NCBI RefSeq assembly: GCF_021869535.1
Contig: NW_026262723.1
Span: 71,796,001-71,860,000 of the forward strand
Direction: 5' to 3'
Origin: Mytilus californianus
Lineage: Eukaryota
Length of the DNA: 64,000 nucleotides
This document shows, one piece after another, positions 37,109 to 37,363 of this stretch (position 1 is the stretch's first letter; each line of letters begins with the position of its first letter). The notes below the pieces were generated by a model. The model had not been told where the DNA came from and made no database searches. It saw only the letters and a list, made by a program, of their open reading frames with translations. The position numbers were made by a program, and so were the translations under genes.

Positions 37109-37363
37109 ATGAAAAGTATCGTGCTGCTTTTGTCAGTGTTTTTATGTACCAGAAATGGATCTTGTATGGTTGGCGATTACGATGCAGCCATGGCAGATCT
37201 AACTGCAGGTGGAACAAGGGTGTGTTCGTATTGTTACTACTGTTTCTTTAAAGGACTATGCAACAGTGAATGTCATCGTCCGCATAGACTGTGTAACTTT
37301 TGTCAGTTTGTTCACTATTGTAACACAAATTGTGAAGATAGCTGTTTCCTTTGGTGGAAGTAA
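37109..37363 (+). CDS. Secreted 84-aa cysteine-rich mini-protein (signal peptide, short acidic pro-region, 47-aa 10-Cys domain)
   Basis: MKSIVLLLSVFLCTRNGSC signal-like N-terminus; CxxCxxC-x5-CxxxC-x6-CxxC-x5-CxxxCxxxC; A at -3 of the ATG; aataaa at ~37772. Confidence 0.8.
   Translation: MKSIVLLLSVFLCTRNGSCMVGDYDAAMADLTAGGTRVCSYCYYCFFKGLCNSECHRPHRLCNFCQFVHYCNTNCEDSCFLWWK

What the first reader, a model, noticed from the sequence alone, without database searches (positions are those of the whole stretch)
37109..37363. Orphan secreted 10-Cys mini-protein resembling a remodelled HRC-like Cys domain
Seen: signal peptide, acidic spacer ending in Arg (DYDAAMADLTAGGTR), then VCSYCYYCFFKGLCNSECHRPHRLCNFCQFVHYCNTNCEDSCFLWWK: 47 aa, 10 Cys, 11 aromatic residues, 3 His. 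The framework is unlike what I recall for mytilin, myticin, defensin, macin or CRP-I. From memory, invertebrate 'histidine-rich calcium-binding protein-like' proteins carry CxYCxYCxFCxLCxxxC...CxxCxYCxFCxLC. This peptide fits that register with the same-position Cys replaced in both halves (K and V), suggesting loss of one disulfide or metal ligand pair. Inference: a processed effector (antimicrobial, toxin-like or metal-binding) from a little-studied family.
Basis: partly seen in the sequence, partly recalled or inferred. Interest (0 to 1): 0.7.

Follow-up and report, generated by a model that had tools for sequence, protein, structure and literature searches.

The report
Mussel mini-protein with unnamed cysteine domain
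A mussel gene encodes a small, likely secreted protein made of one ten-cysteine domain that limpet proteins also carry in front of an EGF-like domain; it matched no family in the libraries searched and likely works as a binding module in the animal's secretions, not as a cut-out antimicrobial peptide.

Summary
The ORF (37109-37363, +, 84 aa) is real. Its counts are as stated, and unspliced contigs from 6 of 7 laid RNA-type runs span it. It is not an orphan. Three distant proteins (Patella, Lottia, one unnamed) share all 10 Cys at the same spacing, plus an invariant DLxxGG motif inside the supposed 'acidic spacer'. In them the domain is followed by an EGF-like domain, and in the limpets by a Thr/Ser-rich tail. 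The mussel has the domain alone, one copy found. The positions said to have lost Cys are Cys in 0 of 4 members. No HRC-like protein was hit, and HRC's defining repeats are absent. The Lottia relative appears at trace level in 2 of 6 shell-matrix fractions of a published proteome. Best reading: a secreted, predicted helical, five-disulfide binding module of about 65 aa in mantle or epithelial secretions, which likely keeps its N-terminal helix. It is near-neutral and conserved, unlike mussel AMP families. No Pfam, NCBIfam or PDB match. An unnamed molluscan domain; function inferred only.

The parts
37109..37363 (+). Single-exon ORF, 84 aa (P0001)
   Evidence: spanned by unspliced contigs in 6 of 7 laid runs
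37109..37165 (+). Predicted signal peptide, residues 1-19 (cleavage after Cys19 inferred from the -3/-1 rule; removes Cys13 and Cys19, leaving an even 10 Cys)
   Evidence: hydropathy; homologues have a similar N-terminus; both non-synonymous transcript variants (T14I, N16Y) fall here
37166..37219 (+).
   Evidence: D30 L31 G34 G35 invariant in 4 of 4; 16 of 27 identities over residues 29-37; helix in the model, block pLDDT 80
37220..37345 (+). Ten-Cys core, residues 38-79, spacing 2-2-5-3-(5 to 7)-2-5-3-3, with an internal two-fold repeat CxxC-x5-CxxxC; Y41 and T73 invariant
   Evidence: predicted helices 42-50 and 60-78
37346..37363 (+). Short aromatic tail FLWWK and stop, at the place where homologues continue into an EGF-like domain
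   Evidence: stop bridged by transcript contigs, no joint or loose end
36984..37108 (+). 5' untranslated region as far as the longest contig reaches; no upstream ATG; true start unknown
   Evidence: X1 contig starts at 36984
37364..37959 (+). 3' untranslated region; AATAAA at 37772 and 37901; carries the indels seen between transcripts and genome
   Evidence: contigs end at 37752, 37887 and 37959; 6- and 21-nt deletions at 37368 and 37403

Best explanation
This is an expressed single-exon mussel gene for a likely secreted protein of about 65 residues that consists of one unnamed ten-cysteine domain shared with limpets, predicted to be a small disulfide-bonded helical bundle that likely acts as a binding module in mantle or epithelial secretions. 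Shown: the ORF, its transcription, its conservation, homology to the N-terminal domain of limpet EGF plus Thr-rich proteins, and trace MS detection of the Lottia relative in shell matrix (published tables). Inferred: the signal peptide is removed after Cys19; the DLxxGG helix stays as part of the fold; the ten Cys form five disulfides; the aromatic residues and invariant positions (Y41, F47, F64, F67) form the core and a binding face. In limpets the domain would sit at the tip of an EGF spacer and a mucin-like stalk. In the mussel it would diffuse freely and bind a protein or matrix partner outside the cell. About 85% for the structural identity, about 40% for this role.
For: Homology: phmmer against 1.84 billion representatives gave 3 hits at E<=0.001 (4e-6, 6e-6, 4e-5), named Patella caerulea, Lottia gigantea (LOTGIDRAFT_232671) and an unnamed ENA protein. 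All 10 Cys, D30, L31, G34, G35, Y41 and T73 are invariant. The non-Cys aligned score beat 100000 of 100000 shuffles for each of the 3. Reciprocal: P0003, P0004 and the P0002 domain each give this locus as the only domain match below E 0.01 in the genome. Secretion: Lotgi1|232671 (222 aa) is listed with 1 peptide in acid-soluble matrix A and 2 peptides in acid-soluble matrix C (24 h hypochlorite with ultrasound) in PMC3374290. Constraint: transcripts differ from the genome at 3 sites in the 255-nt ORF, only 1 (synonymous) in residues 20-84, with no indel, against 31 substitutions and 53 gap letters over the whole 976-nt X1 span; binomial P about 0.015-0.02 (ORF) and 0.006 (mature part). Model: mean pLDDT 72.9, three main helices. 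Genome is a mussel: 34 tandem foot-protein-1-type repeats, 0 in the reversed control (motif recalled).
Against: The shell link rests on one relative, is trace level, and was seen in 2 of 6 fractions (absent from preparation B, from all acid-insoluble fractions and from the 2014 re-analysis of B). Its peptides lie at residues 120 and 181 of P0003, outside the shared domain. The authors note that non-functional proteins get trapped in shell. Four peptide strings of the mussel protein were not found in a shallow Mytilus shell proteome (PMC4517812). The tissue of the expressing runs is not given. The mussel protein lacks the EGF and tail, so its role may differ. The model rests on a 4-sequence alignment, has no residue at pLDDT>=90, and its disulfide pairing was not reported. 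An Arg before Cys1 in 4 of 4 members allows cleavage. The P values assume that 3 unlisted X1 differences lie outside the ORF, as X18 suggests.
Confidence: 0.42

Rival explanations
1. A hormone- or growth-factor-like ligand: a conserved disulfide-rich peptide released at a low level, possibly after cleavage at the conserved Arg, that binds a cell-surface receptor.
For: One copy found; conserved from mussel to limpets; low contig depth, 4-20, in many runs (a poor measure of level); relatives pair it with an EGF-like domain; Arg at position 36 or 37 in 4 of 4. Molluscs have many Cys-rich regulatory peptides (PMC8398477).
Against: No dibasic site before Cys1 in the mussel or the two limpet proteins. 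It does not match FYFY, clionin, CCCGS or the other precursors on the supplement pages read (part 5 of 7). The Thr-rich tail of the limpet forms is more typical of matrix or mucus proteins (own knowledge).
Confidence: 0.25
2. A processed antimicrobial or toxin-like effector: the 47-mer is cut out at Arg37 and attacks microbes.
For: Small, Cys- and aromatic-rich, with a C-terminal FLWWK that could enter membranes; precursor layout like that of mussel defence peptides.
Against: K+R-D-E is +1 for 38-84 and -1 for 20-84, whereas mussel hemocyte AMPs are cationic and CRP-I are hypervariable multigene families (PMC10138031). One copy was found and the mature region is unchanged between genome and transcripts. 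In the relatives the domain is embedded before an EGF domain.
Confidence: 0.15
3. [quoted passage not shown]
Against: No HRC-like hit. The two 'lost' Cys columns hold Cys in 0 of 4. The relatives have only 1 His in the domain. No His-rich or acidic repeats. An even Cys count in a secreted protein favours disulfides (own knowledge).
Confidence: 0.12
4. A truncated relic of the longer EGF/mucin gene, cut by a stop after the first domain and now without function.
For: The stop falls 5 residues after Cys10, where the relatives go on into EGF; no EGF-like motif in the window or 20 kb on either side.
Against: Intact signal, all 10 Cys and all invariant residues are kept; the ORF is depleted of substitutions and free of indels; transcribed in several studies.
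Confidence: 0.06

Closest known systems
Lottia gigantea LOTGIDRAFT_232671 (V3ZP81) and Patella caerulea SNE40_018564, annotated only as hypothetical or EGF-like domain-containing
   Same: Signal-like N-terminus, DLxxGG motif, ten Cys at the same spacing, 39-40% identity over the domain; reciprocal best match in this genome.
   Different: They continue with an EGF-like domain and a tail of 30-39% Ser+Thr; the mussel protein stops after the domain. Their annotation does not name the ten-Cys domain.
[quoted passage not shown]
   Same: CxxC steps in a protein of the secretory pathway (PMC6171002).
   Different: 10 rather than 14 Cys, no HRHRGH or acidic repeats, no poly-Glu; no HRC-like hit in any search.
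Mytilus CRP-I and hemocyte AMPs (defensins, mytilins, myticins, mytimycins)
   Same: Short secreted Cys-rich precursor in a mussel.
   Different: CRP-I has a six-Cys C-C-CC-C-C array, a dibasic site and four exons in a multigene family; the AMPs are cationic (PMC10138031). This gene has no CC, one exon, one copy found and a near-neutral charge.
Molluscan FYFY and clionin neuropeptide precursors
   Same: Secreted, Cys-rich; FYFY has ten conserved Cys in bivalves and Lottia (PMC8398477).
   Different: The alignments in the supplement show other Cys spacings, longer domains and no DLxxGG motif (read by eye).
Mussel byssal cuticle proteins mfp-16 to mfp-19
   Same: Cys-rich secreted Mytilus proteins of little-known function (PMC7018715).
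   Different: Not compared: the paper with their sequences is not held and the supplement searched has none. Identity with one of them is not excluded.

Membership tests
HRC / HRC-like | His-rich HRHRGH repeats with acidic stretches, poly-Glu | tested here: not met
   Absent from the sequence; Pfam scan including PF10529 gives 0 families; features from PMC6171002
HRC / HRC-like | C-terminal cluster of 14 Cys in CxxC repeat | tested here: not met
   10 Cys, spacing 2-2-5-3-6-2-5-3-3; the two gap columns are never Cys in 4 of 4
HRC / HRC-like | Detectable sequence or profile homology to invertebrate HRC-like Cys domains | tested here: inconclusive
   None among hits; HRC-type DNA patterns in the genome gave only noise; no HRC-like sequence was available for a direct comparison
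CRP-I | Six-Cys C-C-CC-C-C array; dibasic propeptide site; four exons | tested here: not met
   No CC, no KR/RR before Cys1, unspliced ORF against PMC10138031
Mussel hemocyte AMPs | Positive net charge | tested here: not met
   K+R-D-E = -1 (20-84), +1 (38-84); pI 6.2 and 7.6
Mussel hemocyte AMPs | Antimicrobial activity, hemocyte expression | not testable with these tools
   Run tissues are not given; needs assay
FYFY / clionin precursors | Family Cys spacing | tested here: not met
   Supplementary alignments of PMC8398477 read by eye
mfp-16 to mfp-19 | Sequence identity and foot-gland expression | not testable with these tools
   Source paper not held
Shell matrix proteins | Peptides recovered from bleached shell; mantle expression | tested here: inconclusive
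   Lottia relative in 2 of 6 fractions, tail peptides only; mussel peptide strings in 0 of 5 supplement files of PMC4517812
Any solved small disulfide-rich fold | Structural match of the model | tested here: inconclusive
   Best Z 3.1 (rmsd 3.7, 55 aligned) among 48161 chains; Foldseek best E 9.1
Unnamed DLxxGG ten-Cys domain (defined here) | DLxxGG then ten Cys at 2-2-5-3-(5 to 7)-2-5-3-3, after a signal-like N-terminus | tested here: met
   4 of 4 aligned proteins

The most novel reading that the evidence does not exclude
An ancient mollusc extracellular domain with a new five-disulfide helical fold, used as a tethered head on an EGF plus mucin stalk in limpets and as a free ligand in mussels, which recognises a specific partner in shell-forming or mucus secretions, or a receptor.
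Probability: 0.3. Interest if true: 0.62.

Novelty: new variant of a known kind. Interest (0 to 1): 0.4.

Why it matters
It defines a small secreted domain, conserved between bivalves and limpets, that the family libraries searched do not hold and that existing annotation hides under 'EGF-like domain-containing protein'. The mussel copy is a natural stand-alone form of 7.6 kDa, so structure, disulfide map and binding partner are directly testable. If the fold is new, it adds a disulfide-rich scaffold and a candidate conserved component of molluscan secretions, a field where most shell and mucus proteins are lineage-specific. Secreted Cys-rich mini-proteins are common in mussels, so without a function this is a modest finding.

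Tried and rejected
Word-index homologue search with the single protein: none. With alignment A2: only the 3 known relatives. Pfam: 0 families for P0001, P0002-P0004 and the trimmed domains; NCBIfam 0 of 4. PDB by sequence: SMYD1 MYND finger E 0.32 and UNC-45 E 0.003 with the 4-sequence profile. UNC-45 was rejected: the match is to DLxxGG plus 2 Cys in an intracellular helical repeat. It also ranked second at Z 3.4 (rmsd 5.0, 61 aligned), far under the bar. Fold searches of two models: no match; this does not show the fold is new. ESM Atlas with two relatives: no usable hit. Metagenome scan: 1 locus (L027) of 384 pattern matches, rejected as an antisense frame in 70% GC bacterial-type DNA without the Cys frame. 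Paralogue hunt: pattern GGxxxCxYCxxC gave 37 matches against 41 in the control; 30 of the 37 were fetched and scored with the profile, plus 5 loci, and only the gene itself scored well; 6 other pattern matches were not fetched. HRC-type patterns: 5 and 7 matches; 10 of these 12 loci were translated and all were simple repeats or short frames; PF10529: 0. EGF-like motif in the window and 20 kb each side: none. Literature: 10 searches; the accession and motif search gave 0 papers. Limpet mucus supplement: 0 hits. A first foot-protein pattern gave 0, a shorter one 34. Five look-ups of earlier findings returned nothing. No complex prediction was run, as no partner is claimed.

Full report
Observation. 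The ORF lies at 37109-37363 on the + strand and encodes 84 aa as quoted. Residues 38-84 have 47 aa, 10 Cys, 11 aromatic residues and 3 His. It is the only Cys-rich ORF among 58 of at least 60 aa in the window, and 0 of 40 Markov simulations gave anything like it. The window is G000:C143:71796001-71860000 of a 1.65-Gb genome. The genome holds a tandem array of 34 foot-protein-1-type repeats (motif recalled), so the animal is a mytilid mussel.

Expression and gene structure. 20 of 24 listed runs, in 9 studies, hold part of the stretch; 3 are on record as RNA. I laid 7 distinct runs. Six have one contig covering the whole ORF without a joint: X1 36984-37959, X2 37013-37752, X3 37032-37887, and X4, X11, X18. 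One search lists no joints and no loose ends; one search showed only the 15 best of 81 joints, none at this gene. X21, raw reads of another organism label, has none. Controls for DNA: the bins 35840-36673 just upstream have depth near 0 in X1-X3, and a neighbouring gene shows a GT-AG junction (30995/33476) in X1 and X3. Contig ends lie near AATAAA at 37772 and 37901. The 5' end is open; an upstream non-coding exon is not excluded. So the 'fragment of a larger gene' refutation is not met.

Constraint. The transcripts differ from the genome at three ORF sites: T14I and N16Y in the signal and a silent change at Cys39. Indels of 6 and 21 nt start just after the stop. Over the X1 contig there are 31 substitutions and 53 gap letters; 3 and 0 fall in the ORF (P about 0.015-0.02; 0.006 for residues 20-84). 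This assumes that 3 unlisted X1 differences lie outside the ORF, as X18 indicates.

Relatives. phmmer over 1.84 billion representatives gave 3 hits at E<=0.001: P0002 (Patella caerulea, 257 aa), P0003 (Lottia gigantea LOTGIDRAFT_232671, 222 aa) and P0004 (unnamed, 135 aa). All ten Cys align at spacing 2-2-5-3-(5 to 7)-2-5-3-3, and D30, L31, G34, G35, Y41 and T73 are invariant. The likeness is not just cysteine: the non-Cys score beat 100000 of 100000 shuffles for each relative. In all three an EGF-like stretch follows directly (UniRef names two of them EGF-like), and the limpet proteins end in a tail of 30-39% Ser+Thr. Profile searches added no further member; these databases hold few mollusc proteomes, so the range is a lower bound (inference). 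In the mussel genome the relatives hit this locus alone for the domain, and protein, DNA and pattern searches found no paralogue. No EGF-like motif lies in the window or 20 kb on either side.

The columns said to have lost Cys hold K/A/T/V and V/K/K/Q, so the ten-Cys frame is old and stable, not a recent remodelling. HRC is defined by His-rich and acidic repeats and a 14-Cys CxxC cluster (PMC6171002, passages); none is met, and no HRC-like protein was hit. A very remote link cannot be tested, because no call returned an HRC-like sequence. The 'acidic spacer' is the most conserved non-Cys stretch (16 of 27 versus 23 of 95 identities), has hydrophobic residues at 24, 27 and 31 in the alignment, and is modelled as a helix with the joint-highest block confidence (pLDDT 80). 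I read it as part of the domain (about 70%). An Arg 2-3 residues before Cys1 in 4 of 4 keeps cleavage possible, and conserved propeptides exist in CRP-I (PMC10138031, passages).

Structure. AlphaFold2 on residues 22-84 with 4 sequences gave mean pLDDT 72.9 and pTM 0.55, with helices 23-32, 42-50 and 60-78; the full-length model gave 65.1. No solved fold matched (best Z 3.1, rmsd 3.7, 55 aligned; Foldseek E 9.1). Disulfide pairing was not reported. Five disulfides are inferred from secretion and the even Cys count.

Function clue. Lotgi1|232671 is listed in the MaxQuant tables of the Lottia shell proteome (PMC3374290; supplement rows; file legends): one peptide in acid-soluble matrix A and two in acid-soluble matrix C, which is 2 of 6 fractions. 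It is not in the main text nor in the re-analysis of preparation B (PMC4094399; abstract, file list and supplement search). The peptides start at residues 120 and 181, outside the shared domain. The curated lists (Additional files 1 and 2.doc) could not be read and may bear on whether the authors accepted it. This shows that the relative is made and reaches the shell space, at trace level, not that it builds shell. Mussel peptide strings were absent from a shallow Mytilus shell proteome (PMC4517812; supplement search and one table part).

Mechanism, committed. Signal removed after Cys19 (inferred), giving 65 aa, 7.6 kDa, net charge about -1. It folds as a disulfide-locked helical bundle (predicted) and is released into mantle or epithelial secretions, where it binds a protein or matrix partner through its aromatic face (inferred, about 40%). 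Rivals: receptor ligand 25%, antimicrobial 15%, HRC-derived metal binder 12%, relic 6%.

Known families. Not CRP-I and not a typical cationic mussel AMP. Not FYFY, clionin or CCCGS (PMC8398477; passages, section 24 and supplement part 5 of 7; PMC5996578 passages). mfp-16 to -19 could not be compared (PMC7018715 passages and supplement search; source paper not held). PMC7333891 (supplement search) and PMC5549309 (passages) gave nothing. No Pfam or NCBIfam family. Ten literature searches found no description of the domain; most subscription papers are not searched.

Verdict. A real, conserved, likely secreted mini-protein that defines an unnamed molluscan ten-Cys domain: a new variant of a common kind, with function inferred only. 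Interest 0.4.

Noticed in passing
window 43387-45780 (-) and 46848-49379 (+): Two divergently oriented intronless frames of 797 and 843 aa, 52% identical over 773 aa, each with about 8 hydrophobic segments and no Pfam family.
   Followed up: partly
window 30706-31014 (-), joined to 33476-33649: DUF3011 exon (E 4e-6), spliced by GT-AG to an upstream exon with stops in all three frames; transcript contigs in X1 and X3.
   Followed up: partly
window 1406-1753 (-): SUEL-type lectin exon (PF02140, E 6e-16).
   Followed up: no
window 20333-21751 (-), 40368-41584 (+), L042:5757-6840: Several broken copies of one element whose frames look reverse-transcriptase-like (label recalled; Pfam gave only DNA_pol_B_2 at E 0.03); other RT-like fragments at 6634-8850.
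   Followed up: no
window about 52100-54000: Tandem array of a unit of about 30 nt with strong GC skew.
   Followed up: no
window 22416-23030 (-): 204-aa frame with repeated Tyr motifs (YMTV, YEEV, YAEF, YFIL, YFVL), like the cytoplasmic tail of a receptor (by eye); no Pfam hit.
   Followed up: no
L077 and L078 (G000:C88:20768933-20773943): Tandem repeat of about 63 nt whose translation mimics a Cys-rich peptide; a false hit in the paralogue search.
   Followed up: partly
P0001 residues 27-58 against PDB 3now_A 426-457: UNC-45 appears weakly by sequence profile (E 0.003) and by fold (6qdk_A 438-505, Z 3.4); read as a shared helix-GG-helix turn, not homology.
   Followed up: partly
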